A DNA stretch of 63,992 bases, the filler included, from Reclinomonas americana ATCC 50394 (lineage: Eukaryota), in assembly GCA_048213135.1 (NCBI GenBank). It is 15 parts of 15 records of this genome, joined end to end, with 100 filler letters (N's around TTAATTAATTAA, not from the genome) between each part and the next. Parts side by side here need not be neighbours in the genome. Positions count along the whole stretch, not along the records: positions 23,723 to 31,528 come from AFZH01019768.1; 14 more parts are not named here. One strand, 5' to 3'. Under the pieces are notes generated by a model. The model was not told where the DNA came from. It did no database searches and was given only the letters and a program-made list of their open reading frames with translations. This document shows positions 9,081 through 54,111 of this stretch, in pieces. The position numbers and the translations under genes were made by a program. Numbering within the stretch: position 1 is the stretch's first letter; each line of letters begins with the position of its first letter.

Positions 9081-12000
9081 TGTGTGAGAGAGAGAGAGAG
9101 ACGACGCTCTACTCTACTACTCGTTCGGNNNNNNNNNNNNNNNNNNNNNNNNNNNNNNNNNNNNNNNNNNNNTTAATTAATTAANNNNNNNNNNNNNNNN
9201 NNNNNNNNNNNNNNNNNNNNNNNNNNNNTTGCTCAGTTTAATGATTGTTGCCATGTTACTCGACAGCATGCTTTCGCACTCATCTGGATCTTATTGTTAT
9301 CAGCCTTTTTCTCTCATCCGTAATTCCCTTCGTCTTTCTCCCCCTTTCCCTTTCATCTCAATTTCCCTTCCTCCCTCCTCTCTTCCCTCTTATCCCCTTC
9401 CCCCTTCCTCCTTCACCCCCTTCCTCCTTCACCCCCTTCCTCCTTCACCCCCTTCCTCCTTCACTCCCTTCCCCCTTCCCCCATCCACCCTTCCCCTTAC
9501 CTCCTCCCCTCCCACAGGCCACCAAAAATTCCCAAGAACTCGACCAAGCCAACATCAAACTCCGCTCCCGCCTCGAACGCCTCGTGCAAGTCACCGCCGA
9601 CCGCGACTCCGAAGTGGAGCGCCTGGTGGCCGAGGGCAACGCCGCGCGCGAGGCGCACGCCCGCCAACTGGCCGACCTGCAAGCCGAGCTGCAACGCCTG
9701 CGCACTTCGCTGCAGCAGCAGCAGGCCGGCGACAAGTCCGAGTTGGAGGCGCTGCAGCAGGAGCTGGAGCAGACGGCGCAGGAAAAGTCGTCGGCCGAGG
9801 AGGAGATTCGCCAGCTGCTGGGGGCGCACGGCGAGTTGCGCGAGCAACTGGAGGCGGCGAATCGCGAGCGGGACACGCTGGCCGCCGAGCGCACCATGCT
9901 GCAGTCGCGGCTGGAGGTGCTGGGTGGTGACTTTGCGCAGCTGACCACCAGCAGCGACGCCGCCGTGGCGGAGCGCGACGCACGCATTGAGCAGCTGCAA
10001 GCGACGCTCCGGCAAGGCGGACAGGCCGTGTCGCAGCTGGAGAATGCGCTGGCCAGCGCCAAGGGCGAGATGGCGGCGGAGCAGGAGCGCCTCAACGCGG
10101 TGGTGGCGCAATTGAATGCACAGGTGGTGGCGTTGAGTGGGGAGCGCGATGCGCTGGCGACGCGCACCAAGGATCTCGGCGTGCAACTGGCCGGCGTGGT
10201 GGCGGAGCGCGATTCCTACGCCTCGCGCATGCACTCGGAGGAGGCGGAGGCTGGGGAGGCGGCAGCGCGCGCAGCCGCGGTCGAAGCACGCTCGGCCGAA
10301 CAGGCGGCGCAGTTGGCACAGGCGCAGCAGCAGGCGGTGGAGCTGTCGGCGCAGGTGGAGGCGCTGCAGAGCAAGCACAGCAACACCGTGGCCAAGGCCA
10401 AGGAGAAGCTGCAGGAGCTGGTGCAGCAGCGTGATGCGGCACTGGCGTCGGCCGAGGAACACGCCGCCGCACGCGTCGCGGCAGTGGAGGCGTTGCAGGC
10501 GGCTGGCAAGGAGGCCGAGGTGCTGCGCGCGACACTGGAGAGCCATGCAAAGGAGGCGCATGATGCTGCCGAACAGGTGGCTCGCCTGACGGCCGAGTTG
10601 GAGGCGGCGCGCGAGGCGGAGCAGAAACTGAACGAGGCGCGACAAGGCGCCGATGTGCGTCTCCACGAGCAGGCCGCTCTGATTGCGCAGTTGACGGCCG
10701 CCAAGAGTGCCGCTGAGGTGCAAGTCGACGAACTGAATGCGGCGCTGGCGGACGCCACGGCGCGAGCACTGCAGGCGGAGAATGAACTTGCCGAGGCGCA
10801 GGCGCTCTCTGCCTCAGTGGAACAGCAGCTGGCCGAGGCGGCGGCGCAGGTTGTCGCCACCGAGCCGCTGGCCAAGTTGCATGAGCAAATGTCGGAGATG
10901 TCGGGCCGGCACGACGCGCTGCGCAGCGACTTGAAACACGCGCACGATGAGACGGCGGCCGCGCAAGCCCGCGTGGCGGAGCTGGAGCAGGAGGTGCTGG
11001 CGGCCAAGGAGAATGCCAGTGCAGCGCATCAGCGACTCGCCGAGATGGAGCAGGCGGCGCAGGCGCAACTGGCCGCCGTGGCTGAGCACGCTCGTGTGGC
11101 GGTGGAGGCACGTGCGGCGGTGGAAGCGCGACTTGCGGAGGCGGAGGCGCAGGTGCACGCCGCAAGCGAGGAGACGCGCGCTGCAAAGATGCGGCTCGCG
11201 GAGGTGGAGCAGCAGGCTCGGTTGGCGACCGAGGCTGGTGGGGCCAGTGAGGCAAGATTGGCGGCTTTGGAGGAGCAGGCTCGATTGGCCGCCGGGGAAG
11301 CGCAGGTGGCCAAGGCGCGGTTGGTGGAGATGGAGGAGCAGGCTCGACTGGCGACCGAGGCTGGTGGGGCCAGCGAGGCAAGATTGGCGGCATTGGAGGA
11401 GCAGGCTCGACTGGCCACTGAGGAAGCGCAGGCGGCCAAGGCGCGGTTGGTGGGGGTGGAGGAACAGGCTCTGTTGTCTGCTCAGGAAGCGCAGGTGGCC
11501 AAGGCGCGGTTGGTGGAGGTGGAGGAGCAGGCTCGACTGGCCAGTGAGGCTGGTGGCGCCAGTGCGGCAAGGCTGGCGCAGTTGGAGGAACAGGCTCGGT
11601 CAGCCGCCGAGGAAGCGCAGGCGGCCAAGGCGCGACTGGCGGAAGTGGAGCAGCAAGCTCGGTTGGCAACTGAAGCTGGCGGTGCCAGTGCAGTGCGACT
11701 TGCGCAGTTGGAGGAGGAGGTCCGAAGTGCGACCGAGGAGGCGTCCGCGGCCAAGTCGCGACTTGCAGAAGTCGAAGAGCAGGCCCGTGTGTCGAGCGAG
11801 GAGAGGGCCGTGCTCGAGGCGGTGTGTTATTTTTTACCTCCCTTTTTGTGCGGCTTATTCTCACCGCTACTTCTCACAGGAGCTCACCGAAGCCAGACAG
11901 CAAGTGAGCGAGGTGCGGTTTGCTGCATTTTCTTTTGCAGTGAGCGTATCCATCCCTGACTTTCCTGCGATGTTCAGGTGTCTCAGCAGCTTGAGGCAGC

Positions 12001-15000
12001 ACAAAAAGAGTCCGCCGATGCCGCACAGGCCTTGGAGACACTGCGTGCAAAGACCAAGTCGTGGCAGGCGCGAGCGCGTGAGGAAATTGACCACAAGGAC
12101 GCTGAGCTGGCGGCGCTTGCACACGAGAAAGGTTGGTAACAGGAGTCGCAGTGTGGCCGAGAGTGATGAATGCTCATTGCTGTTGGCCGCAGATGTTGCT
12201 GCGCAGGCGTGGGCGGCGCAGACGGAGCAAATCAGCAAGGCGGTGCGCGAGTGCGCCAAGCGACTGGTCGTGATCTCTGCCGAAGATGAGGGCAGCGTCA
12301 GTGGACCGCTGCAAGCGCCGGCTGCCGAATTGAGTGCACTCGCTGCTCGCGTGCAAGTTATCGAGCAGCGTGTGGAGGCACTCAAGTCGACCGCTGCGAC
12401 AGGTACACCTCCGTCGGTTTTGAAATATCATCGTGGCGGGGTTAGAGACTGAACAAATATCTCTGCTGCAGCTTCAGCGAGCTCAGAAAAGGACGCCACG
12501 ATTGCTTCGCTGAACCAAGGTGCTGTAGTTGTTGAGCTCGATGCTTACTTGGTCTCAATCGCCAATGACCTGTCTCTTCCGCAGAAATGGAGTCGATTCG
12601 CTCCAACTTTGATCAGCTGCAGGCGGCGTTTGTTGTCGAGAAGTCGGAGAACGAGGCCAAGGGTAGGAAGGGGGGAATGGGAAGTGAGAGGGAAGGAGAG
12701 GGAGAGAGGATGAAGGGGNNNNNNNNNNNNNNNNNNNNNNNNNNNNNNNNNNNNNNNNNNNNTTAATTAATTAANNNNNNNNNNNNNNNNNNNNNNNNNN
12801 NNNNNNNNNNNNNNNNNNGAGAGACAATGGCAGAGAGAGAGGAGAGAAGCTGGATGTAAGAGACAGAGAGAGAAAAATAGAAGACTGAGAATGAATGAGT
12901 GAGAGACGTGGGATCTGTCTGCATGGTTCTCTCGATCATCATCACCTTGCGGTGGGCTTCTAAATGTCGATCTGAATTTGTTGAATCATGCGTGTTAGGC
13001 GGAGAGAGAACGAGAGAGTGTGTGTGTGCCTGACTGCTCACTCTCATCACTGCAGATGTGGAACTGGCGGACCTGCGTGGCAAGGTTGCCTCCAACGAGC
13101 AGCGCATGCAGCAGTGGAAGCAGAAAGTGGAGGAGATCACCTCTGGTTCGTTGTGCAGCATCAGTTTCACATCTTGCACGCTGCTTATTGCTCTGTTCCT
13201 TTGTGCAGACCAAGCGACGGAGATTGCTCGCCTTGAAACTGAGCATGCGCAACTGACCGAGGAACTAACCGCACTCCGACAGCGCGAGGTGATGCATGCG
13301 CTGCAACAAGTCACTCTCATCCTCCGTCCTCCGTACTGACCTTTTGTTCATCCTGTCGCAGCTGGAGCGACCGAGTGCGCGCAAGTCTGGCTGGAATGTG
13401 ACGAATTGCTTCGAGTTCAAGCAGCGCACGTGGATTCTGGTTACGCCGGACGCCGAAGTGCAGCAGCCAGAGGCTTGGGTGCTGGCGGAGGACTATTACC
13501 GTGGTGTCGCGGACACGCCCGCGCAGATGCAGAGCTTGCTGCAGGGTGTGTCGCGCCTGCGCTCCGAGCAGGACATGATTATCATGGAGGCTCGCATGGT
13601 GAGAAAGGGGGAAGGGGGATGGGGGAAGGGAAGGGGGTTGGAAGAAGGGAAGGGGCTGAGAATGATTAACGGATTACTGGTGTGGAAAGAGAGACGAGGG
13701 GGCGAGGAAACTCATGCAAAGTAAGAATGAGACTGATAGGGATGGGTTGGGAGTAAGAAGGAAGTTGTGATGTAGAAAGGTGGACTGTCGCAGTGAGTGA
13801 GAGAGTGAGAGAGTGAGGTGAGAGAGAGAGAGGAAGAAAAAGAAGGAAGCTGTGATGTACAAGAAAAATGGAGGCAGAGCAACACATGATCGTGCTCTTG
13901 CACCAACACGCGTTCTTGCGCTCACTTGCTCTCCCTGTTGTTCTCTATTATTGTGCCCCACTCTTACTCTCTATCCATCCTCTGTATGATCTCATCGATC
14001 TTTTGTAGCGAGCGCTTGATCCCATTCTCGTAATACTTGTTCTGGTTTGAGAGATTGAACAGAATGCAGTATGAGAAGCAGAAAGGGTTGCATGGTAGAG
14101 AATGGAAAAGTTTGCGCGTGGGACAGAGAAAGTGTATGAGTGACATGATGGAGCGAGAGAGAGAGAGATTGCTGTGAGAGCTGGAAGTAAGTGAGCGCTG
14201 GATTATGTAACCGGAGAGTTCAGCGCCTTCTTGCGCCTGCGGGACACTCATTCGTTTCTCTCTCTCTCTCTCTCTCGCAGCGCAAACGCATCGACGAGGC
14301 CGAGGCGCGAGCGGCGCAAGTTGCCGAGGAGGGACAGCGGTACAAGACCCGCGCAGTGGCGGCTCTCAAACAAAAGACCGAGGATTGTGCGGCGCTGGCC
14401 AAGCAGCTGGATGATGCCACCCGTGCCGAGCAGTTGGCACAGGAGAAGATCTTCAAGCTCAATGCATCGGTTTGTGAAGCCGCGTGATTGTTGCCTGCCT
14501 TTATAGGTGATCTCTCGTCTCACTCACCTCTGCACAGTTGAACGACTACGAGGCGCTGACCAAGGAGATGCAGCATCACACCGAGGACCACTTCTCCAAG
14601 CAGCGTCAGTTGGAGCAGGAGCGCGACCTGGCGAACATTCGGGTGCGTCGTGCACACATCGCTTTTCCCCGTTGCTTGTCGAACCTCATTATGCTGTCGA
14701 CAGGCTGAGAAGCTGGAAGCACAAATGCGCGACATGGATCGCGCCATGGCCGCCCAGAAGGAGGAGGCAGAGACGCGCGCCACTGAAGCGCACGCCGTGC
14801 ATTTGAAGGGTTTGTCACTCCAAATCTCTCTCATACGACGTGTCCACTTTCTTCTCATTTTTCCTTATTGCAGAGGTCACTGACCTGCAGCAGCAGCAAG
14901 CGTTGCGCTGCGAAGAGTTCCGTTCCGAGATTCGTACGCTGCGCGAACGCAATCGCAAGTCGTCGACCGACAAAGATCGCGAGGTGGCGCGTGTTCGCCG

Positions 15001-18023: not shown

Positions 18024-18448
18024 GTGGGTGTGCCGTGGTTAGGCTGTTGCGGTGCGAAAAATCAATGTAGGTATGAAACGGAATTTCATGTGGGAGAGGG
18101 GAGGGGAGAGGGAGAAGGAGGGAGAGAAAGAGAGAAAGAGAAGGGAAAGAGAGAGGGCGGGCTGGGGAAGAGAATTTGTCTGTGTGTGCGAGGAGAGAGA
18201 GTGAGGCACGTGGTGCCAACATTGAGGCTGCCAGATCAATTCGAAGAACAATGATCCGATGCCGTTGTCAGTCGACCGCACAATCACCACAAGCTCAGTT
18301 CCATTCTGCCCGGCAGTCACTGAGCGTCATGCAATGACGGTCCCGATCCTGATTGCACTTCTCTGTGTATGTCAGTGCTGCTTCTCAGACCCCCTGTTCA
18401 TCATTATGCCTCCGATCTTATTTGCCACACCCTTACCTCCCAATTCAC

Positions 18449-19082
18449 TCACAATTTCGCCCTCATCTGCGCCCCCTTCTTCACATACGCCTCGCGTGCG
18501 GCCAGAATGGCCTCGCAGCGCGCCTTGTCGATTTCGCCCTCCCACGAACCGCCGCTCTTGATGTACGAGCCGACAATGACCGCATCGGCACCGGCGGCAA
18601 AGTACTGCGCCAGATTCTCCGGAGTCGCACCGGAGCCCACCAGTACAGTCATGCGCGAGGGCGAGGAGGCGGCAGCCGTGGCCGTGCGCGCAATGGCCTT
18701 TTCGTCGGCGGCCATGCCCGTGGCCAGGCCTGTGACAATGACGCCGTCGGCGAGGAAAAAGTCGGCGGCCTTGGCCATTTCGCCAATGTCCACGTCTGCG
18801 GGTGAGGAAGTGAGGCAACTTGTCTCGAGAAACAGAAAGGGGGGAAGGGGGGAGCAAACCGGCGGTGATGGCGTGCGACGAGTGCTTCTTCTTAATGTCG
18901 GCAAAGATTCGCACATTCTCCGCGCCAATGTGCCGGCGGTAGCGCAGGAGGCGGCCGGCGTCGGCGACCGCAAAGAGACCTTCGTCGGCCACGTGCGAGA
19001 ACACAAAGCCCTCGACGCGCACAAAGTCGGCGCCGGCGGCGTGCGCGACTGCAATGGCTTCCTTGTTGGCGCCGGCGAGGAC
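18449..19082 (-). CDS. BtpA/SgcQ-family TIM-barrel protein, C-terminal two exons only
   Basis: VLAGANKEAIAVAHAAGADFVRVEGFVFSHVADEG..IFADIKKKHSSHAITA|DVDIGEMAKAADFFLADGVIVTG..VLVGSG..ADAVIVGSYIK are characteristic family motifs. The N-terminal part is not found upstream. Confidence 0.88.
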
Positions 19083-19289
19083 CTGGAAAGAGGGGAAGGG
19101 AGGGGGTGAGGGAGTTGAGAGAGTGAGGAGAGGAAAGCGGGCAAGAGAAGCGGATGACGAGAAAGAAGGAATGAAACCTTCGAGAGACTCCAACTGACTC
19201 ACTGGCACTGAGAGGATGAGAGTGCTGGTGCGAGAGAGAAGAGAGGAGAGAGAGAGAGAGAGGAGGAGGAGGAGAAGAAGAAGAAGAAG

Positions 19290-19321
<32 letters not shown>

Positions 19322-19569
19322 GAAGAAGAACAAGAATGAAGAAGAATAAGAACAAAAGCAAGAACAGGAAGAAGAAGGCGAAGGAGAAGAACAAGAACAC
19401 GAAGGAAAGAAGAAGGAAGGAGGAGGAGAAGAAGGAGAACAAGAACACCAACAACAGCAACAACCAGAAAAAACAGACGAGAAAAGCGGGAGAAGGAGGA
19501 GAAAAAGAACAAGAGGGGAAGAAGATGAAGATCATGGAGAAGAGGAGAGGGAAGAAGAAGAACAGCAGC

Positions 19570-19740
<171 letters not shown>

Positions 19741-23001: not shown

Positions 23002-24187
23002 GCGGGGCGCATGGCGGGGGATCAGTTCAAGCCTCGTGTGGAGTGGTGATGGACGAGGAGTGCTGATTTCCAGTTGTGCAGTGCTGGGTTTGGGGTTGAA
23101 GGATGCGCGGTTGGTGGAGGAGTTGGAGGAGAAGGGGCGTGGAATATGGAGAAGTCAGTGCAGTGAGCAACGAGAGAAGAGTGGGGTGATGGAGAAGTGA
23201 GTTCGCTTCCTGTTTGCTGCGCAGTCAGATCCTGAGTTGGATTGGTCGGCAATCATCATGCAAGTGCGCGAGAGTCGGCTGGTATTCCACCGATGGCTGA
23301 GGAGCTGCATCCGCGTTAGTTGGAGTGGGATGAGAATGAAGATCGCTCGTTGCGATGAAGTGAACGACTGAGGAAACAGTTTACTTTGCCATGAGACGGG
23401 GTATAAAGCAAGGAAGGGGCATAAAGTTGCACTATGCGCGTGAAACCAAGGCAATCGCAGTGCAGGGAGGGCAACAAATGGGAAGTGGGGTGATGCTGGT
23501 ATTCACAATCCAGACCCCCCGGTGCAAAGGAAATTATTTATGAGAGAAACTAAGAGAGACTGAGAGACTGAGAGAGAGACTGAGAGACTGAGAGAGAGAC
23601 TGAGAGAGAGAGAGAGAGACTGNNNNNNNNNNNNNNNNNNNNNNNNNNNNNNNNNNNNNNNNNNNNTTAATTAATTAANNNNNNNNNNNNNNNNNNNNNN
23701 NNNNNNNNNNNNNNNNNNNNNNGCAAAGTAATCGTGCGAACCCGGTCATCGGGTTGATGCTTGTACAGGGCAAGACATCGAGAGAGAAAGAGAGGGACAC
23801 ACAGAAAGAGAAACAAAGAGAAAGAGTGAGAGAGAGGGACACAGAAAGAGAGAGACAAGAGAGAGAGAGAGAGAGTGACAGAGGAAGAGAAGAAAGGGAA
23901 AAGGGAGACGTGAGTGATTCGCAAAGGGATGCGATGGCACAGGCAAGCACGCACGGGAGATGATGAACACATCGAAAAGGACGAAAGAGAGAAGATCTGG
24001 GGACGGAGAAAAGAGAAAAACAGCGCGACGACACGATAGATATGGCATGGCTGCGTTGATAAAGCACTCTCTCCCTTGGAGTGGCTGCTCATGCTCAACA
24101 ACTGGTGAGAATCATCCGAGGGTGCGTCGCATCCGTTCATTGGTGATTGGCTGGAGTTCATCGAATCATTCTCTGTGCTTGTTGCTT

Positions 24188-24699: not shown

Positions 24700-27600
24700 C
24701 GAACGCCAGCACCTCGAGCTCCTGGGTCTCGTGCTCTCCTCCCGCTCTCCTCACCATTCATGGCCTCTTTCGCTCAGTTCCGCCCACCGCCATTCGCGCC
24801 AACTTCGCATTGGTGGCCATCGCCTCGCCCTTCGCGGCGGTGGCTGCGGAGCCTCGCGCCCTGTCCACTCTGCCGATGTGCTACCGGCCTCCAACTACGC
24901 TGTGCCACCTGTTTCCGCCCAACCCGTGGCGGCGGCGATTGTGGAACCAGCAGCTGTGGCTCCGGCTGTTCCTCGCATGTCGACTCTGCAGCTAAAGATT
25001 CAAGCTCTTCACGAGGCCAACACCATGAAGACCGTGCTCCCGCTGGCCAGCGATCCGAGCAACCTCTCCACCCTGGAATGCCTCGTTTCGTTGAATTTGG
25101 GAAGGAAAGAATGTGGGCGAGGTCTCTCGTCTGACACGCTCTCCTCCCCCAGGTTCCTCTGTGGGCCAACCAGACCACAGCTGAGGCTGACTCGGCGGGC
25201 GGTCGTGCCACTGCGCAGCTGGCCGACGACATGTTGGTCAAGTTTGTCAGTCGCGAGAAGCCTACGGATAAGGTACGGCGGTGAAGGCTCAGAATGCACA
25301 GGCCTCTTCTGTGTCTTTCTCTCTTCTTAACGCACTTCTTCGTCTGTCTTCCTCTTCATCTCTCCCTCTTTCATGTGCCCTCATTTGCAGTTTCTCTCTC
25401 TCTTTTCGTCCTCACTCCTCTTTTGCTGACGCCCATCTCTTTCCAGTTCCCTCCTTTCTCTCCCTCTCTACTCTCTTCTATCTCTTGTCTCAGTCTCTTC
25501 CTTTGTCTTTCTCTCTCTTTTCTCTCTCATTTGTCTCTTCTCTCTCTCTTTATTCTCCCTCTCTTCTCTCTCTCTCTTCTCCCCTTTTCTCTCCCTTTTC
25601 TCTCCCTTTTCTCTCCCTTCTCTCTCCCTTTTCTCTCCCTTTTCTCTCTCCCCTTGTCTCTCTCTCCCTTTTCTCTCCCTTCGCTCTCCCTTCTCTCTCT
25701 ATCGCCTTCTCTCTATCTCTGTTGTTTGCTCCACCTTTCCCTTCTCCGTTCACCCACATCTCTGTCTCTCTTTGTCGTTGGTCGTTTCCTCACCGCCTGC
25801 TTGTGCCCTGTTCCACTGTCTTCGATTGCACATGTCTTTCGCCGTCCTTCTTATGTACTGCGCTTATAAGTGGGCTCTCTTCCAGTCAACACCTATGCTG
25901 TCTGTGACCTTCCTCTCCAAGTTGTGAGCATATTTAATGTTTGCATCCTCGTGCGGCGCTGCATCATTCTCTTGTGCGCGCTGGCCATTGTGTGCTTTGC
26001 TGAATCACTGCCTCACGGAATGTGTGTGTGATCAGGTTCTGGTGGTCGCTGGATGGTCCGGCGGTGGCAAGTCCGTGCTGCTGCGCCAGCTCACCACTCG
26101 CCTGCATGCGCGCAACGACACGCTGGTGTTGTCGGCTCGTCTTCCCGCCATTCCTCGTGAAGAAGTGCTGCGCAAGCCAGGAGCGCTGCTGCTTTACCTT
26201 CTGCACGAGGCCAACGAGGCCGTGGAGGACACGAAGATGCAGGTGACAGAGGATGAGGTGAGTATGTTTGTGGGTTGGTTGGCATTCAGATTCGTGGTGG
26301 TTTGTGTGGAGCCGGGAGCATGATGTTGAGTCTCGAGAAGGTCGCTTGCATGTGTCCCTGCACACACATCTTTCTCTCTCTCTCTCTGTCTGCTCACGTA
26401 TTTCACTTCCTATTTTTCTCACTCGACGTCCAGTCTCTTATGCTCCTTATCTCTCCATGTGGAGTCATCTACCTTGCTTCTTCCCAGATACTCTCACTTT
26501 TGCACATTGTTTTTCTCTTGTGATTGTACATGCTCCCCCCGCTCTCTCCATCTTCACTTTGTCTCGCTTTAGGTTGCACAGTCTCATTCTCTTTCACGGT
26601 TTATCTCTCTTCCAAAGGTACTGTTTCTGGTCGCTGTGTCCTTTCTCTCCTCCTCTGTTGAGAATATACTTTCTCTCACTCAGTCTTCTTTCCCCAATGC
26701 GCTCTTCTGTCGTTCTTGCAAGCATCTCCCTCTCTCATAGTTGCTCTCTCTCCCAGTCTCTCTCAGTCTCTCTTTCAGTCTCTCTCTCTTTCTCCGTCTC
26801 TTTCTCTCTCTCGGCCTCTCTTTCTCAGTCTCTCTCTCTCTCCGTCTTTTTCTCTCCTATTGTGCGTCTCTCCCTCTCCCTCCGCCACCACTCGTTTTCT
26901 CACTCTTTCTGTCAGCGTGTATCTCTTCACATTGATGGTTTCTATGCACGCTCTGTTCCTACTTGCCTCACATTTGTCACACCACACAGCTTCGACGCAT
27001 CGGCACCGTTGTGCTGGTGCTCGACGGATATGACGAGTGCAGTGAGGCACCCGGCAACTTGTTTGTCAACCACGAACTCGATGTTGCGTTGCCATGCCAA
27101 GTGGCGTGATATGCACGCATGCAGTGGAGTGAATCGACTCACTCAATCGCGTAGAGTTGGCCCAATGTGCTCCTGGTGGTGTCGGTGCGACGCGAATTCA
27201 TCAGCCGCCTCGGCAACTTCTGGGCTGAAGAGCACTTTGTGCCTGTGGACCCGAAGCTGTCGCGCGCCGAGCGGCTTCGTCAGTCGGAGCGTACGCTTGT
27301 ACGATGTATGCTGCGTCTGTTCTCCAAGGACGACATTGATCTCTTTCTGCACAAGTTGAGTGCCATCGCTGCTCTGCCCTGCTTGTTCACTTGGATTACA
27401 CATTCACTTTTGTGTGAGCAGGTTTGTGGAATCACGAGCGGATCACCCTCGCTCATGGGAGCAGTACAAGCAGCAGATCGAGCGCACGCCGGGATTGGAT
27501 GGACTGGCTTCGTCGGTGAGTTCTTTGTTGGTGATGGAAGGAAATAGAGTGCGCAATGATATCGACGCGAAGAGTGTTGTACGAGAGCGACAAGAAAAGC

Positions 27601-30600
27601 GACATCATAACAAAAGAATATCACATGTCAATGCAGTGGCGGCGGTGGTACTCACTTTCCTCCTTTTCCCCCTTTCCATAACAGCCCCTGATGTTGAATA
27701 TGATTGTTCTGGTAATGGAGGACCTGGAGCGAATGCACGATCACCATGAAGGCGCTGGCGGTACTACTGCACTCTCCACGAATCGTGTGACTCGTGCACG
27801 GTTGTATGAGGCGTTTGCCAAACACAAACTGCGCTGGGAGTTTGAGCATCACCGAGTGCACATTCGTCAGGTGTGCCGTTGGCGGTTGTGGATAACAGTG
27901 TGGAATGCATGCCCTCTTACAAGATCATTCTTGCACAGTTGTATGGCGACGATGAATCGGAAGAGGATTTCTGTCTGCGAGTGTGGGACTTTTGCTCGGA
28001 GCTTGCTGGAGAGATGATGCAACACTCGTTGGTATCTGTGCGGCAGGGAAAGCTTGAGGTCTGTACGTTCAACATGAGAAGTTTGCTACAATTCCTGTTC
28101 CATCTGCGTTTCGTAGCTCACTCTCCTTCATTCATCACAGCACACTCAACAAGCTGTCGCAGAGCAGCATGTGTGGAACAAGTGGTTTGATCGTGATGAT
28201 CCGTTGCAGAACTCCCTCGCTCGTGCTGTTGCGTCGTCATAATGTTCCCTCTCTCGTTGCGATGCATTCCCTGCGTTCTCATTCGAGATACGACACAGGC
28301 GTTGTTGAAGTGGAGTCGACTCGGAGCATCGCAGCAGCGTGTGGAGTTCATGCACAAATCGGTGCTAGAGTACTTTGCCGCTCAGTCGTGGCTGGCTGAT
28401 GTGCGGTTGTTGGCCGATGAGGAGGTGGAGTTGGAGGTGCGTATCGTCGTGCTTCTCTGATCATCCCTGCTGCATGATTGTCAACCTACCTCGGAGCAGG
28501 ATCGGCTCGACAGACTATGCGCCAGCTTCACTGGCCAGCGGACACTGCTCACATCGGATGAAGTGAGTGCATCCTTTCCATCATTCACTCTCGCGACATG
28601 CGCTCATCCCTTCTTCGCTGGATGCAGGGACTTAATTCTATCCTGTCGTTCGTCGCCGAGCAAGTGCAGGCTGATCCGTCTCTCCATGACGTACTGTGGA
28701 AGGCGATTGCTCTTTCACGCACGGAGGAAAGAGTCGCTTCAGTGTCGTCGAGTGCGGCAAGTACACTATGTCTCGCGGAGGTGTCGTTCAGTGGGCGCGA
28801 TTTGTCGGGTGTGCGAATCCCAGGTGCGGATTTGAGAGATGCAGTGATGCACAGGACGGTGTGGAGGGGAGCGGATATGCGAGGGGTGAATGTGTGCATG
28901 GCATTTGCGAGAGAGGCGGATTTCACGGGGGCGTATATGACGGGTATGAAGTGGCCGAGAAAACCAATTGAAGGCCATACGAGTGTGGTGAGCGCAGTGA
29001 CAGTGACACCCGATGGTCAGCACATTGTGAGTGGCAGTGCTGACGGTACTGTACGGATGTGGTCAGTGGCAAGTGGCGAGGAGGTGCGCCGACTGGAAGG
29101 GCACGCAGGTAGGGTGTTTGCAGTGGCAGTGACACCCGATGGCCAGCGCATAGTGAGTGGCAGCAAGGACAAAACTGTACGTGTGTGGTCTGTGGCAAGT
29201 GGCGAGGAGGTGTGCCTACTGGAAGGTCACACAGAGTCGGTGAATGCTGTGGCAGTGACATCCGATGGCCAAAACATTGTGAGTGGCAGCGATGATGAGA
29301 CTGTGCGAGTGTGGTCGATGGCAAGCGGCAAGGAGGTGCGCCGACTGGAAGGCCACACGAGTGCGGTGATTGCAGCGGCAGTGACACCCGATGGTCGGCA
29401 CGTTGTGAGCGGCAGTCGGGACAAGACTGTACGAGTGTGGTCGGTGGAAAGTGGCGAGGAGGTGCGCCGACTGGAAGGCCACGCGAGTACGGTATGGGCA
29501 GTAGCAGTGACACCCGATGGCCAGCACATTGTGAGTGGCAGTGATGACATGACTGTACGGGTGTGGTCGGTGGCAAGTGGTGAGGAGGTGCGCCGCCTGG
29601 AAGGCCACACTGATCATGTACGGGCAGTGGCAGTGACACTCGATGGTCAGAACGTTGTGAGTGGCGGTGGTGACAACACTGTTCGGGTATGGTCAGTGGC
29701 AAGTGGCGAGGAGGTGCGCCGACTGGAAGGCCACACAAGTGTGGTGTGGGCGGTGGCAGTGACACCCGATGGCCAGCACATTGTGAGTGGCAGTCGGGAC
29801 GAGACTGTACGAGTGTGGTCGGTGGCAAGTGGCGAGGAGGTGCGCCGACTGGAAGGCCACACGAGTGAAGTGTATGCAGTGGCAGTGACACCCGACCTCC
29901 AGCACATTGTGAGTGGCAGTGAGGACAAGACTGTGCGGATGTGGTCGCTAGCGAGTGGCGAGGAGGTGCGCCGACTCGAAGGCCACACGGGATGGGTTTC
30001 TGCAGTGGCAGTGACACCCGATGGCCAGCACATTGTGAGCGGCAGTCGTGACAAGACTGTGCGGATATGGTCCGTGGAAAGTGACGAGGAGGTGCGCCGA
30101 CTTGAAGGCCACACGGATGCAGTGTCTCGAGTGGTAGTGACACCCGATGGCCAGCACATTGTGAGTGGCAGTCATGACAAGACTATACGAGTGTGGTCCG
30201 TGGAAAGTGGCGAAGAGGTGCGCCGACTGGAAGGCCACACGAACTTTGTGTGTACTGTTGCAGTGACACCCGATGGCCAGCACATTGTGAGTGGAAGTGA
30301 TGACGAGACTGTACGGGTGTGGTCGGTGGCAAGTGGCGAGGAGGTGCGCCGACTAGAAGGCCACACGAGTGCGGTGACTACAGTGGCAGTAACACCCGAT
30401 GGCCAGCACATTGTGAGTGGCAGTGATGACGAGACTGTACGAGTGTGGTCGATGGCAAGTGGCGAGGAGGTGCGCCGACTAGAAGGCCACACGAGCGGGG
30501 TGTTTGCAGTGGCAGTAACACCCGATGGTTGGCACGTTGTGAGTGGCAGTGGTGACAAGACCGTACGGATGTGGTCTCTGGAAAGTGGCGAGCAGGTGCG

Positions 30601-30883
30601 CCGACTGGAGGGCCACACGGATTGGGTGCGTGCAGCAGCAGTGACACCCGATGGCCAGCACATTATTAGTGGCAGTGATGACAAGACTGTACGGGTGTGG
30701 TCGGTGGCAAGTGGTGAGGAGGTGCGCGGGCTGGAAGGCCACACGGATGGGATGTGTACAGAGGTAGATGGACAGCGTGTTCTTCCAAGTTGGAAGGATT
30801 CACCGCTTGCACACCACGATGGAGAGCTACTGCTGCGCATTCTTGGCTCCTTCCTGCCTGATTTCACCGGCGTGATTGTGTGA
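24700..30883 (+). CDS. NLR-like STAND protein: NACHT-type NTPase - pentapeptide repeats - 14 WD40 repeats (5' end uncertain, probably further upstream exons)
   Basis: Walker A VLVVAGWSGGGKS (G at 26051), Walker B VVLVLDGYDE (27008-27037), sensor LVVSVRRE, PLML, winged-helix EFMHKSVLEYFAAQ, pentapeptide FSGRDLSGVRIPGADL..ADMRGVNV..ADFTGA, then the WD40 array and stop at 30883. Confidence 0.9.
28970..30733 (+). repeat. Fourteen highly conserved 126-bp (42-aa) WD40 repeats in one exon
   Basis: Consensus EGHTxxVxAVAVTPDGQHIVSGSxDxTVRVWSVASGEEVRRL repeated 14 times. Confidence 0.97.
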
Positions 30884-31400: not shown

Positions 31401-31628
31401 ACATGGGAAAAGGGAAGGGAGGGGGGAAAGGAAGGGATAAGTGGAGAAGGAGGAGACGGGAGGGGAGGAAAAGGGAATGGAGACGGGAGGAGAAGAGAAG
31501 GAGGAGACGGGAAGGGAGGAGAGGAGACNNNNNNNNNNNNNNNNNNNNNNNNNNNNNNNNNNNNNNNNNNNNTTAATTAATTAANNNNNNNNNNNNNNNN
31601 NNNNNNNNNNNNNNNNNNNNNNNNNNNN

Positions 31629-33432
31629 CGCGTCGGTTTGTCTGGACAAGTGGTGGTGTTGACGGTGCCAGTGGCCTCGTTCCCCTTTGCCACGCCGTCA
31701 TTTACACTGTTCAAGAACGCCGACTGCCGCGGAAATGTGGCCACCATCATCAGCGGCTTCAACATCGCGTCTGATGGCACGACCTATACCATCACATGGA
31801 CATGCGACACGACTGGAGAGCCAACACCAACGAAGCAGCAGTTGTGCCTGTCGTCCACTGACCTGGCAGGCTACTTCAGCATGGCATCTGTATCCATTTG
31901 TTGCGTTCCTGCTGGAGATATTCTGATGTCAGGTTTACTTCCTTTTCTTCTAACGAGGTGAATATGCAGATCGTGTCAAGAGCACTTCCGCGCCTTCCAT
32001 ATTCCAGGGCATCAAGTCGCAAACTGTTGTCTTGTCCGGTGGTGACTTCCCATTGCTGGCTACAAGTGCCGCCAATGGCAGCAATCCAGTCACACCTGGC
32101 GGCACATCACTGGCATTCTTCCTTTCACTCGCCACCGACTGTTCGTCGATGGACTCGCGGGCGGCTGCCTTTGTGGTCACTGCGGTGTCGCCGACGCGTA
32201 TTACGGCCACTGTCTCCACCATTTCTGCGGTCTCTCTCGCCTCGTGCACCCTGGATCCGCCTGGCACGTATCAGATTTGTGGTCGGTGTGTTACGGAGGG
32301 AAAGAGGGAAAAGGAGGGGAGGGAGGGGAGGGAGGGGAGGGAGGGAAAGGGGGAAAGGGGACTGGGAGGAACGACGGTGAAGAAAGAGAGGCAAATGGGA
32401 GAGAGGGCATTACCGTTGAGAGATATGGGGCGAGGGGAAATGGTGATAGAGAAAGGGCGTGAGAGTGGATGGTGTGGGGCAGAAAGAACAAAGCAGTGGG
32501 TGCCGGGAGGAGAGGCGAAGGAAAGCGGGAGAGTCTGGTGAGCCACGAAGTAGATTGTCTGTATGTGTGGGAGAAATGGTAGGATGTGAATGAGAGGGTA
32601 GTTGCGAGAGGCAAGAGGACAAAGGAGCAATAGGGAAAGTGAGTGAGAGGCTGCAGGTGGGCCACGTATGTGCGAGAGATACGCGAGGATGTGAACGAGA
32701 GCGCGGTTGCGAGAGGCAAGAGGGCTGAGGAGCAATAGGAAAAGTGAGTGAGAGGCTGCAGGTGAGCCACGTATTTGTGAGAGATATGCGAGGATGTGAA
32801 CGAGAGGGCGGCTGCGTGAGGCAAGAGGGCTGATGAGCAATAGGAAAAAATGAGAGAGAGACCGCAGGAGAAAATGAGTGAGACTTTTGTCATTCTCTTT
32901 CATGTTCAACGAGAAAAGTGGAAGGATAAGAGAGAATGCGATTGATCTATCGACGTTTCACCACCATCGACTATTCATTCCACTGACGACATATCTGCGC
33001 ACAGCTTCCAAGATGGCTCGTATGTGCCTCTCGGTGTGACATTGACCATCACGACCGTCACCGACCCCGATGTCGGCTTCATTTCTCCAAAGTCGTTGCC
33101 TCTCGGTGTGCCAACTACGCTGGTGTTGCATTCGCCATCGCGCACGCTGTCGAATTGTACTCGTTTCAAGGTCGTCGACGCTGGATCCGACTGCAATGGT
33201 CCGGCTTCGGGTGAGTGCTGAGAATGAGAAGATTCTGCGCGGGCGGTGGGTGGAGGAGATCTGTACTCACGGTTCGCCCTCTTTGCATATCTCTCTCTCG
33301 TCAGCGGCCCTTGCGCTTACGGCCTTCCAAGACGGCGTGTTTGATGCGTCGTCATGCTTCTATGGATCTGTTGCTGGCGGCTGTGGACAGTTCAAGGTGC
33401 AGCTCACGAGCTCCAAGTCGGTGTATGCCACA
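31629..33432 (+). CDS. Internal exons of a Thr/Ser/Cys-rich, probably extracellular protein
   Basis: Several open exon-like segments (GQVVVLTVPVASF..TYTITWTCD, FVVTAVSPTRITATV..GTYQIC, LTITTVTDPDVGFISPKSLPLGVPT) with beta-sandwich-like composition. Probably the same gene as the lectin exons across the gap. Confidence 0.5.
32560..32870. repeat. Intronic ~105-bp tandem repeat (about 3 copies)
   Basis: Recurrent aggatgtgaa.gagag...gttgcgagaggcaagagg...gagcaatagg.aaagtgagtgagaggctgcaggtg. Confidence 0.75.
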
Positions 33433-34374
33433 NNNNNNNNNNNNNNNNNNNNNNNNNNNNNNNNNNNNNNNNNNNNTTAATTAATTAANNNNNNNNNNNN
33501 NNNNNNNNNNNNNNNNNNNNNNNNNNNNNNNNACGTTGGAAGGGAAATGATACCTTGTGGCAGTGTGGATGAGAATGCATTGGAGAAGTAGTAATAATGA
33601 GAGGTGTGCCGTGGAGGCTGTGCGTGTGTGGTAAGAGAGGATCGTCAGAGGTGGGAAGGGAATGGATACCTTGTGGCAGTGTGAATGAGAATGCATTGGC
33701 GAGATAGTAACAGTAAGAAGTGTGCCGTGGAGGCAGTGCGTGTGGCAAGTCAGAGGGGGAAAGAGATAGAATAGGTTGTGGTAGTGTGTGGATTGTATGC
33801 CATTGAGAGGGTGATAAAGCGAGCGCTGTCAATGGAGGTTGATTCTGTATGCGAGAGAGAGAGGTTGGAGGGAGAAGAGAAGAAGGACAGTTTGTCAATA
33901 TTTGTGGTATTGTGTGACGACGGTAAGAAGGAGAGAGTGAGATAGGAGGAGGGCATCAGTGGAGATTGTTCTTGTCCTACGAGAGTGAGAGACCGACTGC
34001 GGGGAGGAAAAGATTAGTTGTTCCCATGTGTGATGTGAATGCACCGCATGAGGGGACGGGTTGTGGGTGACAGAAGTGGAAGATTTGAGGAGGGGAATGG
34101 CTGAGACTTTCGGCAGTGTGTGCTTGGGGATTCAACAGATGAGTGACATAGAGGATTGAAGGTCAAATGTGCGTGCGAGGAGAGGAGGTGGGGGACATAA
34201 AGGAAATGTTGAGGTGCTGTTGATGAGAGAAACAACAACAAGTGAGTCAGTCAGAGAGTTTATGTGTGAACAAGAGAGGAGTGGTACGGAGGAGCGGGTT
34301 GGATAGCATGACATTCTCAATCGCATGGTGTCCGCGCCGTACTTGCTGACGTTTGCTTTCTGGTTGTGCGACAG

Positions 34375-52312: not shown

Positions 52313-54111
52313 ATGGAGGTCGCGCTGTGCGCCGCCATGGTCTCCGTCTCCCTCGCCCTCAGCGTCTACAACCGCCGCTTCCACACACCCCCAACCAACA
52401 CCAACAACAGCAACAGCAGCAAACACCGCGCGAGCAGCAAACGCACAGGCCTCCACACACCACTCACCCCACTGCACGTGGACACATCATCGCAGCAGTC
52501 GCCCACCTCCTCCTCCACCTCGCCTCTCGCCTCCTCCACTGCTGACTCACCAGCATCGCTGGCGTCATCGTCGGCCTCAGTGGACGGAGATGATGATGAC
52601 GACGAGGCCAAGTCCTCTGTGTCGTCATCAGCAGCAGTGCAGCAGCAAAAGGCGATGCCAGTGGCGCGAAAACAGCGACAAGAGCGCAAAATGCGACGCG
52701 ACTTTCTCCTCGCGTTTCTCATGTTTGCATGTTGCGGATGCAATCTCAATTTCGTTCTTCTTCTTGTGGATCGCCGACATCTCGACTCGTGTGTATATGT
52801 GTGCAGTGGCCGACACCATTCAGGGACCGTTTTACGCGGAAATGTGCACGTTCTTTGGGATTGCGTCGTTGCGCGAGGCGCAGACGCTGTTTGTGGTCGG
52901 TTACGCCAATCGGTACTTTGCAGTGGCGTTTTTCACGGCCGCCGTGCTGGCGCCGGTGATGGGACCTGTAGTTGACACGTAGTTGCGTGTGCGAGTGTCT
53001 ACATAAGGCGTTGCGTTTCGTTGCTGAGCAGCTTTGCGTAGTGGACGACGCAAGGGAGCGGTGGCGGCGTGCAGCTTGTTCGCCCTCGCCGCCGTGCTCA
53101 AGCACTCGCACAGTCTCACTGTTGGCTACGTGGGTCGGCTGATTGGTGGCTCGGCGGTGGCTCTCGGTCGTCTGTCGTTCGAGTCGTGGTTGTTGTCAGA
53201 GATGTACAATGTTGCGCAGGAGGGAAGGAGAAGAGAAAGAGAGAGAGAGAGAGAGAGGAGAAGAGAAGAGGAGTGGGGGAACGNNNNNNNNNNNNNNNNN
53301 NNNNNNNNNNNNNNNNNNNNNNNNNNNTTAATTAATTAANNNNNNNNNNNNNNNNNNNNNNNNNNNNNNNNNNNNNNNNNNNNCCGTTCTGTCTCTCTCT
53401 GCCTGTCTTGCCTCCTCCACCCTTCCCCTTCCCCTCCCCCCCCCCTTCCCCCCCCATCTCCCCCTCCCAGACCGCCGCCTCTTCGTCGGCATCTTTGTCG
53501 GCGCCATGGCCCAATCCTGCATCATCTTCTTCCTCTTCCTGTGGATGCCATCGCTGATGCGCCCGGGCAGCGCCACCGCCGTGCTCACCACCACCAGCCC
53601 CGTCAGCCCGCTCTTCCTCTTCGCCTCGGTCATGGGCGCCGTCTCCATTGGCGCGCAGCTGCTGGTGGTGGCCTCGGAGCGCTCACTGCTGCCACTCGAC
53701 CGCCTTCCACTCATCCCGTGGGTGGCCAGCACCACCAGCTTCCTCCTACTCACCTTCAACCCCGGCTACAACCTGGCGCTACTGCTCACGCACGTCGTCG
53801 CCATGTCGGTGGGCGCGCAGTGGGTGCTAATGCCCACGCTGCGCGCCGCACAAGTGCCCGACCCGCTGCGATGCACGCTACTCAGCCTGTCGCACCTGGT
53901 CAGCGGCCTCCTCCTCGCCTTCCTCTTCTCCTACAAGCTCGGCCACACCTCGGTGGAGACGCTGTGGCGGTGGCTCTTTGCGATGAACCTGCTCAGCATC
54001 GGCGGGCAGTACTGGGCCTCGGCGCGCCTCCCCCAGGCGCCCTTCAGTCCCGTGTTCTCCGTCGCCGGTGCCGCCACGCGGCCACTGCGGCAGGGGCATC
54101 ATGATTTGTGA
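52313..54111 (+). CDS. MFS transporter, MFSD5/MOT2 (molybdate-anion transporter)-like; spans one gap
   Basis: ADTIQGPFY, GPVVD..GRRKGAV, LKHS..VGRLIGG..LSFESWLLSE, followed by a multi-TM C-terminal exon. Confidence 0.8.

What the first reader, a model, noticed from the sequence alone, without database searches (positions are those of the whole stretch)
28970..30733. Concertedly evolving WD40 array with hypervariable ligand-face positions (HET-E-like diversified receptor)
Seen: 14 repeats are almost identical except the two residues after GHT/GHA (SV, GR, ES, SA, ST, DH, SV, SE, GW, DA, NF, SA, SG, DW), the residue after V (S, F, N, I, W, R, W, Y, S, S, C, T, F, R) and the two around D in SGSxDx. 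All lie in one exon of an otherwise intron-rich gene. Established: equivalent top-face positions are positively selected and shuffled in Podospora HET-D/E/R. Inference: two 7-bladed propellers forming a recombination-diversified non-self sensor in a protist.
Basis: partly seen in the sequence, partly recalled or inferred. Interest (0 to 1): 0.7.

Follow-up and report, generated by a model that had tools for sequence, protein, structure and literature searches.

The report
Repetitive WD40 sensor of protist NLR-like gene
The 14 near-identical repeats are real and form the double-propeller sensor end of an NLR-like switch protein in an intron-rich protist, varying fastest at the known ligand-contact positions, but this type of receptor is already known from fungi and bacteria.

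Summary
Observation confirmed. Window 28970-30733 holds 14 in-frame 126-bp WD40 units (83% nt, 77.5% aa identity). Variation is concentrated in unit codons 5, 6, 8, 24 and 26, exactly as listed.

The array is the intron-free last exon of a hand-built 12-exon gene (24977-30883, 1226 aa). The gene encodes a NACHT-type P-loop NTPase, a short pentapeptide-repeat spacer and the WD40 array.

My own codon-model test favours positive selection: M2a versus M1a gave LRT 48-57 and omega about 8-10. Sites 6, 8 and 24 are the published R1-2, R1 and D-1 top-face hotspots. None of 75 null simulations reached the observed LRT.

AlphaFold2 and PDB 2YMU support two 7-bladed propellers.

Concerted evolution and repeat shuffling are not shown. 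The unit tree is star-like and unit ages are homogeneous, which fits a single amplification burst. No HET domain was found. No reads or whole genome were available.

The same five positions are the most variable in most of 62 repetitive database homologues. The scan has also noted a cyanobacterial counterpart. Verdict: a new member of a known kind.

The parts
24977..25084 (+). Putative exon 1 with candidate ATG (36 codons); donor GTTTCGT. The 5' end is uncertain and further upstream exons are possible.
   Evidence: Hand model; reading frame and splice signals. No Pfam domain in upstream ORFs.
25153..25272 (+). Putative exon 2 (40 codons), the pre-P-loop segment
   Evidence: Joins in phase to exon 3. 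The spliced model has no internal stop.
26036..26257 (+). Exon 3: start of the NACHT-type NTPase, with Walker A GWSGGGKS at 26051-26074
   Evidence: Pfam on the enclosing ORF gives nSTAND_NTPase5 E 2.8e-5, AAA_16, and NACHT E 0.0047, all below curated cut-offs. tblastn of P0024 and P0057 hits 26033-26314. Motif located.
26990..27082 (+). Exon 4: Walker B VVLVLDGYDE at 27008-27037; donor GTTGCGT
   Evidence: tblastn of P0057 residues 142-172 hits 27002-27094.
27155..28562 (+). Exons 5-11 (27155-27354, 27422-27515, 27685-27870, 27924-28037, 28141-28227, 28299-28436, 28500-28562): remainder of the NOD module and helical arm
   Evidence: Spliced model aa 76-588 aligns colinearly with P0024 residues 34-536 (blastp E 5e-30, 27% identity) with no internal stop. 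P0024 carries Pfam NACHT at residues 35-151 (32.1 bits, cut-off 26.7).
28628..30883 (+). Exon 12, intron-free (2,256 bp): linker, pentapeptide spacer, WD40 array, tail and stop codon
   Evidence: Single ORF 28562-30883; acceptor ATGCAG at 28627.
28772..28885 (+). Pentapeptide-repeat segment between the NOD arm and the propellers; the repeat-like sequence runs on to about 28969
   Evidence: Pfam Pentapeptide PF00805 29.8 bits (cut-off 20.2) on residues 49-86 of window:28628-29000. All 45 listed hits of the linker search carry PF00805.
28970..30733 (+). 14 tandem 126-bp WD40 units. Units 1-7 form propeller 1 and units 8-14 form propeller 2. Hypervariable codons in each unit are 5, 6, 8, 24 and 26 (bases 13-18, 22-24, 70-72 and 76-78 of the unit).
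30734..30751 (+). Truncated 15th unit (6 codons) that supplies the end of strand d of the last blade
   Evidence: The last strand in the model, E589-594, covers it.
30752..30883 (+). Non-repeat C-terminal tail (predicted disordered) and stop codon
   Evidence: pLDDT is below 50 for model residues 595-642.

Best explanation
The array is the sensor domain of an NLR-like STAND protein of an intron-rich protist. The gene encodes a short N-terminal region of unknown function and a NACHT-type P-loop NTPase with intact Walker A and B motifs. These are followed by a helical arm, a short pentapeptide-repeat beta-helix spacer, and 14 WD40 blades that fold into two 7-bladed propellers.

The 14 blades arose by amplification of one intron-less 126-bp unit, most simply in a single burst. 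Since then the scaffold, including a complete Asp-His-Ser-Trp tetrad in every blade, has been held by purifying selection. The three to five residues per blade that point out of the top face have been driven apart by positive selection. Each blade therefore offers a different contact surface.

By analogy with other NLR/STAND proteins (inferred, not shown), a ligand bound on the propeller faces releases the NTPase for nucleotide exchange and oligomerisation, which triggers a downstream response. The ligand and the output are unknown.
For: Array and variable positions.

Domain order:
- Walker A and B motifs, and a spliced model of 1226 aa with no internal stop.
- Colinear alignment with P0024 (E 5e-30), which carries NACHT and pentapeptide domains above the Pfam cut-offs.
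- Pentapeptide above cut-off in the window itself.
- 14 WD40 matches.

Selection:
- At the 37 background codons dS is 0.337 and dN 0.076. At the 5 variable codons pN is 0.55, giving dN about 0.99.
- M2a versus M1a gives LRT 48.4 on the ML tree and 57.1 on an NJ tree. Omega is 10.4 or 8.2, on 7-9% of sites. Sites 6, 8 and 24 have posteriors of at least 0.95.
- None of 75 M1a-null simulations reached the observed LRT. This includes 25 with independent genealogies every 3 codons, whose maximum was 24.3.

Face mapping:
- Strands in the model place position 8 at the start of strand a, 24 at the end of strand b, 5 and 6 in the d-a loop and 26 in the b-c turn.
- The published rule names R1-2, R1 and D-1 as top-face hotspots (PMC3419727, passages).

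Fold:
- pLDDT 86.7, 56 strands, and a confidence dip exactly at the unit 7/8 boundary.
- The best structural match is 2YMU, a solved 14-repeat double propeller (Foldseek E 4.6e-59; phmmer E 5e-154).
- The double-propeller protein Pwp2 (5i2t) matches with TM 0.80.

Single burst: a star-like tree, no distance decay, and homogeneous synonymous distance to the consensus (p 0.69).
Against: - No RNA data support the splice model, and its 5' end is uncertain. No effector domain was found.
- NACHT is below the Pfam cut-off on the window's own exons (17.2 bits against 26.7). Membership rests on homology to P0024.
- The codon models are my own implementation, run on only 14 short sequences.
- Recombination inflates the LRT: 10 of 25 heavy-recombination nulls exceeded 5.99.
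- Positions 5 and 26 were not assigned to the positive class.
- Selection on synonymous sites would lower dS and exaggerate the ratio.
- One mosaic statistic (SSCF) is significant (p 0.0145 without the variable codons) and 66 of 136 site pairs fail the four-gamete test. Some gene conversion therefore cannot be excluded.
- An immune or non-self function has no direct evidence.
Confidence: 0.6

Rival explanations
1. HET-E-type dynamics. The repeats are kept alike by ongoing concerted evolution (unequal crossing-over or gene conversion within and between paralogues). This process also shuffles variable cassettes and produces repeat-number and repeat-order polymorphism among strains.
For: - High internal identity and the same hypervariable spacing as the Podospora positions 11, 12, 14, 30 and 32 (PMC12222747 passage).
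- SSCF mosaic statistic p 0.0005, or p 0.0145 without the variable codons.
- 66 of 136 informative site pairs show all four gametes.
- The array is intron-free in a gene with 11 introns upstream.
Against: - Pairwise dS among units is about 0.34, with no near-identical pair; the maximum nucleotide identity is 0.897.
- The tree is star-like.
- Neighbouring units are no more alike than distant ones.
- Synonymous distance to the consensus is homogeneous across units (p 0.69).
- The longest-tract statistic MCF is not significant (p 0.30 and 0.37).
- Four-gamete failures are expected from recurrent mutation at this level of divergence.
- No paralogue or allele was available to test exchange.
Confidence: 0.2
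2. An ordinary, recently amplified propeller with no immune role. After amplification the blades differentiated so as to grip one fixed, asymmetric partner. The fast change at the contact positions is a one-off adaptation rather than continuing diversification against varying targets.
For: - Highly repetitive propellers arise continuously in all lineages, and WD40 blade counts peak at 7 and 14 (PMC9218822, passages).
- The single-burst signature.
- The same five positions are the most variable in most repetitive homologues, whatever their source: 46 of 62 have at least 4 of their top 5 positions among them.
Against: - The array is fused to a NACHT-type STAND NTPase. This is the architecture for which repetitive sensors have been linked to immunity or allorecognition in fungi and proposed in bacteria (PMC4986451 and PMC9218822, passages).
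- Omega of about 8-10 is high for simple differentiation.
Confidence: 0.15
3. A decaying or misassembled locus. The array is a pseudogene remnant or an assembly chimera of several WD40 genes.
For: - The scaffold has N gaps nearby, at about 23.6 kb, 31.5 kb and 33.5 kb.
- Illumina assemblies are reported to misassemble such arrays (PMC12222747 abstract).
- An earlier scan note reports a damaged NACHT-like gene elsewhere in this genome.
Against: - The 2.3-kb frame is uninterrupted, and there is no internal stop in the 12-exon model.
- There are no indels among the units.
- Background dN/dS of 0.23 shows constraint.
- The longest exact internal repeat is only 43 bp, so the units are individually resolvable.
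Confidence: 0.05

Closest known systems
WRAP-type highly repetitive WD40 propellers on bacterial STAND ATPases (Nostoc punctiforme protein, PDB 2YMU)
   Same: - 14 near-identical WD40 blades at the C-terminus of a STAND NTPase, folding into two 7-bladed propellers.
- 2YMU is the best structural and sequence match among solved structures (Foldseek E 4.6e-59, 44% identity over 580 columns; phmmer E 5e-154).
- The background on this protein comes from PMC9218822 (passages).
   Different: - The window gene is eukaryotic and spliced, with 11 predicted introns.
- It has 42-aa units with dS of about 0.34. WRAP is described as lacking synonymous differences (PMC9218822 passage).
- The window gene has a pentapeptide spacer.
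- No TIR partner gene was seen.
Podospora anserina HNWD genes (het-d, het-e, het-r) and other fungal NLRs with high internal conservation
   Same: - NACHT plus a WD40 sensor made of 126-bp units.
- Hypervariable codons with the same spacing as five of the seven high-dN/dS positions (11, 12, 14, 30, 32).
- A predicted double propeller (PMC12222747, abstract and passages; PMC4986451, passages).
   Different: - No HET domain was found.
- Unit identity is lower here: 67-90% amino acid, against 'over 80% to 100%' in HNWD.
- All 14 blades are canonical, rather than 11 plus 3 cryptic ones.
- Concerted evolution and length polymorphism are not shown here.
Highly-Repetitive (HR) WD40 proteins of Hu et al. 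2017 (PMC5587647)
   Same: - Internal identity of 0.775 exceeds their 0.7 cut-off.
- Diversity is concentrated at predicted hotspot sites.
- Every blade has a full tetrad.
- They report HR WD40s mainly in bacteria (50%) and fungi (36%), with none in animals or plants, and high internal identity in about 2% of protist WD40s (passages).
   Different: That survey is a catalogue. I did not see this gene or its domain order in the passages I read, and I did not open the supplementary lists.
Database proteins with the same domain order: P0024 (metagenome) and, less surely, P0118 (EukProt, Rhabdomonas costata) and P0019
   Same: - P0024 has NACHT, pentapeptide and 12 WD40 repeats, and aligns colinearly with the spliced model.
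- P0118 and P0019 align from the pentapeptide-like linker through the array, at 44-46% identity.
   Different: - P0024 is only 27% identical over the NOD region.
- The pentapeptide match in P0118 is below the cut-off (17.4 bits against 20.2), and no NACHT hit was obtained on its partial N-terminus.
- No close relative (over 45% identity in the linker) exists in the collection.

Membership tests
Highly repetitive / high-internal-conservation WD40 propeller | Internal repeat identity of at least 0.7 (Hu 2017), or median above 60% (Pereira & Lupas 2022) | tested here: met
   Mean pairwise unit identity is 0.775 for amino acids, range 0.667-0.905.
Highly repetitive / high-internal-conservation WD40 propeller | Dyrka 2014 HiC criterion: over 85% identity over at least 100 aa | tested here: met
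   Met only marginally. The best 100-aa self-window is 0.87 (offset 5 units), with 0.86 at offsets 1 and 4. The mean is 0.75-0.80.
Highly repetitive / high-internal-conservation WD40 propeller | Residual variation concentrated at top-face hotspot positions (R1-2, R1, D-1) | tested here: met
   The highest entropies are at codons 6, 8 and 24, followed by 5 and 26. The rule is from PMC3419727, and strand positions come from the model.
NLR-like STAND NTPase of the NACHT type | P-loop NTPase with Walker A and Walker B motifs | tested here: met
   GWSGGGKS at 26051-26074 and VVLVLDGYDE at 27008-27037.
NLR-like STAND NTPase of the NACHT type | Match to the NACHT profile (PF05729) above its curated cut-off | tested here: inconclusive
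   A single exon scores 17.2 bits against a cut-off of 26.7, and nSTAND_NTPase5 scores 24.4 against 34. The spliced protein could not be given to the Pfam tool. It aligns at E 5e-30 with P0024, whose residues 35-151 pass the NACHT cut-off.
NLR-like STAND NTPase of the NACHT type | Tripartite order: N-terminal effector, NOD, C-terminal repeat sensor | tested here: inconclusive
   The NOD and sensor are present in that order. The roughly 76 aa before the P-loop exon and all upstream ORFs of at least 90 aa have no Pfam match. The 5' end of the gene is uncertain.
Podospora HNWD family (HET-D/E/R) | N-terminal HET domain | tested here: not met
   No HET hit, or any other hit, in the 14 upstream ORFs scanned between 21946 and 25355 on both strands. 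Caveats: only ORFs of at least 90 aa were scanned, and short exons would be missed.
Podospora HNWD family (HET-D/E/R) | Hypervariable codons at positions 10, 11, 12, 14, 30, 32 and 39 of the 42-aa repeat | tested here: met
   Five sites with identical spacing (n, n+1, n+3, n+19, n+21) correspond to positions 11, 12, 14, 30 and 32. The register offset of 6 is inferred and was not checked against a Podospora sequence. The equivalents of positions 10 and 39 are only mildly variable here, at 0.59 and 1.15 bits.
Podospora HNWD family (HET-D/E/R) | Concerted evolution of repeats within and between paralogues, with repeat-number polymorphism | not testable with these tools
   No whole genome, no sequencing runs listed, and no close paralogue in the protein collection or in scan notes. 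Evidence from within the array does not require it.
Pentapeptide repeat | Match to PF00805 above its cut-off | tested here: met
   29.8 bits against a cut-off of 20.2, on residues 49-86 of window:28628-29000.
Double 7-bladed WD40 propeller | 14 blades folding as two separate 7-bladed rings | tested here: met
   The AlphaFold2 model has 56 strands, with the only internal stretch of pLDDT below 50 at residues 298-300, the unit 7/8 boundary; pTM is 0.53. The best matches are 2YMU and the tandem-propeller protein Pwp2 (5i2t, TMq 0.80). Model coordinates could not be inspected directly.

The most novel reading that the evidence does not exclude
This gene is one element of a lineage-specific innate-immunity or allorecognition repertoire in a unicellular, intron-dense protist. 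NLR-like switches and stand-alone repeat proteins (WD40, ankyrin, TPR) would each carry freshly amplified repeat sensors whose contact residues are under continuing diversifying selection. That would make it an independent protist counterpart of the fungal and bacterial NLR systems. The intron-free state of the array in an otherwise intron-saturated gene would then mark repeated birth and turnover of sensors.
Probability: 0.2. Interest if true: 0.6.

Novelty: new member of a known kind. Interest (0 to 1): 0.35.

Why it matters
Repeat sensors that are almost identical except at their contact residues mark fungal allorecognition NLRs and candidate bacterial NLR-like systems. Finding the same design on a NACHT-type gene of a protist, with a statistically supported excess of amino-acid change at the three canonical top-face hotspots, extends this receptor logic to another eukaryotic lineage.

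It also gives a compact case for study: 14 blades, three to five variable residues each, and a solved structure at 44% identity. It could be used to ask what such propellers bind.

The finding does not change the picture. Surveys already list repetitive WD40 proteins in protists, and the same variable positions recur in most repetitive homologues.

Tried and rejected
- **Whole genome.** None is held for this window, so paralogue counts and within-gene versus between-gene repeat comparison could not be done.
- **Sequencing runs.** None was listed for window:24500-31000, and no RNA holder was listed. Strain variation, splice junctions and assembly checks against reads were therefore not possible, and read laying was not used.
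- **Linker and pentapeptide search.** A search with residues 1-118 of the last exon found 45 proteins, all at 45% identity or less. No orthologue or close paralogue was found.
- **Scan-note look-ups.** The DNA look-up found nothing. The protein look-up found only a cyanobacterial analogue.
- **tblastn of 120 homologues on the upstream region.** This found only weak exon hits (E 0.003-0.04). The exons were therefore set by hand from reading frame and splice signals. The first two attempts had a wrong last-exon start and a wrong ATG position, which were corrected.
- **Upstream effector domain.** None was found in the ORFs scanned.
- **Neighbouring TPR ORF (46948-49089, minus strand).** I checked it for repetitive repeats. 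Self-identity is only 0.18 at a 42-aa offset, so it is not of the repetitive type.
- **Composition as a sign of foreign origin.** GC3 is 0.583 in the array and 0.650 in the upstream coding sequence. This difference is too small to interpret.
- **Mapping residues on model coordinates.** Coordinates are not exposed, so mapping rests on the DSSP strand positions and the published hotspot rule.
Full report
**1. What is in the sequence**

Tandem Repeats Finder reports a single array at 28970-30745. It has period 126 bp, 14.1 copies, 83% matches and no indels. It lies inside one open frame, 28562-30883.

Translating from 28970 gives 14 complete 42-residue WD40 units. A 15th unit breaks off after six residues into a non-repeat tail. 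Pfam WD40 matches 14 stretches (E 2.3e-169).

The residue lists in the finding are reproduced exactly by unit positions 5+6 and 8. Entropy per position is 1.8-3.2 bits at positions 5, 6, 8, 24 and 26. It is at most 1.15 bits at each of the other 37 positions.

His3, Ser21, Asp25 and Trp31 are invariant in all 14 units. Every blade therefore keeps the structural tetrad.

Mean pairwise identity is 0.827 for nucleotides and 0.775 for amino acids. The longest exact internal repeat is 43 bp. The units are thus individually distinguishable.

**2. The gene around the array**

Reading frames and splice signals upstream give a 12-exon model, 24977-30883. It has 11 introns of 53-763 bp and encodes 1226 aa without an internal stop.

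The model contains these features:
- Walker A motif GWSGGGKS (26051-26074).
- Walker B motif VVLVLDGYDE (27008-27037).
- A pentapeptide-repeat segment above the Pfam cut-off (29.8 bits against 20.2).

On single exons the NTPase matches are all below their cut-offs: nSTAND_NTPase5 at E 2.8e-5 and NACHT at 17.2 bits against 26.7. However, the spliced N-terminal 589 residues align colinearly with database protein P0024 (model aa 76-588 against P0024 34-536, E 5e-30, 27% identity). In P0024, residues 35-151 pass the NACHT cut-off and residues 505-532 are pentapeptide repeats.

The protein order is therefore short N-terminus, NACHT-type NOD, helical arm, pentapeptide spacer, then 14 WD40 repeats.

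No domain was found in the roughly 76 residues before the P-loop exon, or in upstream ORFs of at least 90 aa. The 5' end is uncertain.

All 11 introns lie in the first 1,425 coding bases. The last exon of 2,256 bp has none. No RNA data could be found to confirm any junction.

Four of the 11 donors are of the GTT type: GTTGCGT twice, GTTGAGT and GTTTCGT. This matches the shifted-donor class that earlier notes report for this genome.

**3. Fold**

AlphaFold2 was run on the array with 43 homologues as the alignment. The model has mean pLDDT 86.7 and pTM 0.53, with 56 strands (14 x 4). The only internal stretch with pLDDT below 50 is residues 298-300, exactly the boundary between units 7 and 8. 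The tail is disordered.

The best Foldseek match is PDB 2YMU, titled 'highly repetitive propeller structure' (E 4.6e-59, 44% identity over 580 columns). The tandem-propeller protein Pwp2 (5i2t) matches with TMq 0.80. By sequence, 2YMU is also the top solved structure (E 5e-154).

PMC9218822 (passages) describes that protein as 14 blades folding into two 7-bladed propellers on a STAND ATPase. Two 7-bladed propellers are therefore well supported here.

**4. Where the variable residues sit**

In the model, the strands of each unit cover positions 8-13 (a), 19-24 (b), 28-33 (c) and 39-2 (d). The variable positions fall as follows:
- Position 8 opens strand a.
- Position 24 closes strand b.
- Positions 5 and 6 lie in the d-a loop.
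- Position 26 lies in the b-c turn.

Wu et al. 2012 (PMC3419727, abstract and passages) define three top-face hotspots. R1 is the residue after the first V/L/I of strand a. R1-2 lies two residues before it. D-1 is the residue before the tetrad Asp. In this unit these are positions 8, 6 and 24.

**5. Selection**

By Nei-Gojobori counting, the 37 background codons have dS 0.337 and dN 0.076 (ratio 0.23). The five variable codons have pN 0.55, which gives dN of about 0.99. That is about three times the background dS.

I wrote a codon-model likelihood program in the script box and obtained these results:

| Analysis | Result |
|---|---|
| M0 | omega 0.54 |
| M1a, ML tree | lnL -861.62 |
| M2a, ML tree | lnL -837.40; LRT 48.4; omega 10.4 on 7% of sites |
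| Sites in the positive class | 6 and 8 (posterior 1.00), 24 (0.946) |
| Same data, NJ tree, scaled branch lengths | LRT 57.1; omega 8.2 |

Recombination between repeats can produce false positives. I therefore simulated M1a-null data through the same NJ pipeline, 25 sets per scenario:

| Null scenario | Maximum LRT | Sets above 5.99 |
|---|---|---|
| Independent coalescent tree every 3 codons | 24.3 | 10 of 25 |
| One coalescent tree | 8.1 | 1 of 25 |
| Star tree | 5.1 | 0 of 25 |

None of the 75 sets reached 57.

The caveats are as follows:
- The implementation is my own.
- There are only 14 short sequences and few replicates.
- Selection on synonymous sites was not modelled.
- Positions 5 and 26 were not placed in the positive class.

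**6. Concerted evolution or one burst?**

The maximum-likelihood tree of the units is almost a star. Most internal branches are at most 0.027, against terminal branches of 0.05-0.23.

Identity does not fall with distance along the array: 0.828 for neighbours and 0.81-0.84 at all other distances.

The number of synonymous differences from the consensus is homogeneous across units (mean 4.07, variance 3.15, chi-square p 0.69). No pair is more than 89.7% identical.

A Sawyer-type permutation test gives mixed results. The sum-of-squares statistic is significant (p 0.0005; p 0.0145 without the variable codons). The longest-fragment statistic is not (p 0.30 and 0.37). Sixty-six of 136 informative site pairs show four gametes, which recurrent mutation at this divergence can also produce.

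The simplest history is a single amplification followed by divergence. Ongoing homogenisation or shuffling is neither needed nor excluded. The decisive comparisons, with alleles and with paralogues, could not be made.

**7. How general the pattern is**

I built a profile of the window's unit and applied it to the 165 stored database proteins. Of these, 117 had at least 6 ungapped 42-aa units, and 62 of those had mean unit identity of at least 0.6.

In 46 of the 62, at least 4 of the 5 most variable positions are among 5, 6, 8, 24 and 26. All 62 share at least 2. These proteins are the window's own best hits, so the sample is biased. It includes named fungal and bacterial proteins.

The literature agrees:
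- Hu et al. 2017 define HR WD40 proteins (identity of at least 0.7). They find them in bacteria (50%) and fungi (36%), find none in animals or plants, and note high internal identity in some protist proteins. They also note diversity at hotspot sites (PMC5587647, passages).
- Pereira and Lupas 2022 find highly repetitive propellers in all kingdoms, with WD40 blade counts peaking at 7 and 14 (PMC9218822, passages).
- Dyrka et al. 2014 show enrichment of such repeats in fungal NLRs (PMC4986451, passages).
- The Podospora positions used for repeat classification (10, 11, 12, 14, 30, 32, 39; PMC12222747 passage) include five with exactly the spacing seen here. The register is inferred.

This scan has also recorded a cyanobacterial 14 x 126-bp counterpart on other DNA, and stand-alone WD40 gene arrays with variable faces elsewhere in this genome. 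I did not test either of these notes.

One full-text search for NACHT, WD40, protist, NLR-like and pentapeptide listed no paper describing this domain order in a protist. That is one search of one library, not proof of absence. I did not open supplementary tables of the surveys, and they may list similar proteins.

**8. Verdict**

The sensor-face and double-propeller readings hold, and positive selection at the three canonical hotspots is supported within the limits stated.

The gene is an NLR-like NACHT-pentapeptide-WD40 protein, not a member of the HNWD family. Concerted evolution, repeat shuffling and a non-self-recognition role remain unshown.

It is a new member of a known kind of receptor, of moderate interest mainly because of its host lineage.

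Noticed in passing
window 46948-49089 (-): A 714-aa open frame with strong TPR_12/TPR_10 matches (E 9.6e-48 and 4.6e-34), the kind of TPR often found on NLR-like proteins. Its repeats are diverged (self-identity 0.18 at a 42-aa offset). Its upstream exons were not worked out.
   Followed up: partly
window 3815-4222 (+) and 7378-7803 (+): Two ORFs about 3.5 kb apart each match the C-terminal part of the TLDc domain (E 1.7e-11 and 1.4e-14). This suggests a tandem duplicate pair of TLDc genes.
   Followed up: no
window 18375-19574 (-): Two overlapping frames match adjacent parts of the BtpA family profile (positions 87-158 and 169-251). This points to a spliced or frameshifted BtpA-like gene.
   Followed up: no
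window 10935-12449 (+), repeats 11191-11772: A 505-aa open frame holds a 63/126-bp tandem repeat (7.7 copies of 63 bp, 69-88% matches) and has no Pfam match. It may be a coiled-coil-like repeat protein.
   Followed up: no
window 25085, 27083, 27355, 28228 (intron starts of the NLR-like gene): Four of the 11 predicted donors begin GTT (GTTTCGT, GTTGCGT, GTTGAGT, GTTGCGT) and each follows an exon that does not end in G. This matches the shifted-donor class that earlier notes report for this genome. The junctions are predictions only.
   Followed up: partly
window about 23620-23720, 31530-31630, 33440-33530, 53290-53380: Runs of N (1,232 in the window) and abundant GA/TC-rich low-complexity tracts. 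The scaffold is a gapped draft, so the gene's 5' region and its neighbours may be incomplete.
   Followed up: no
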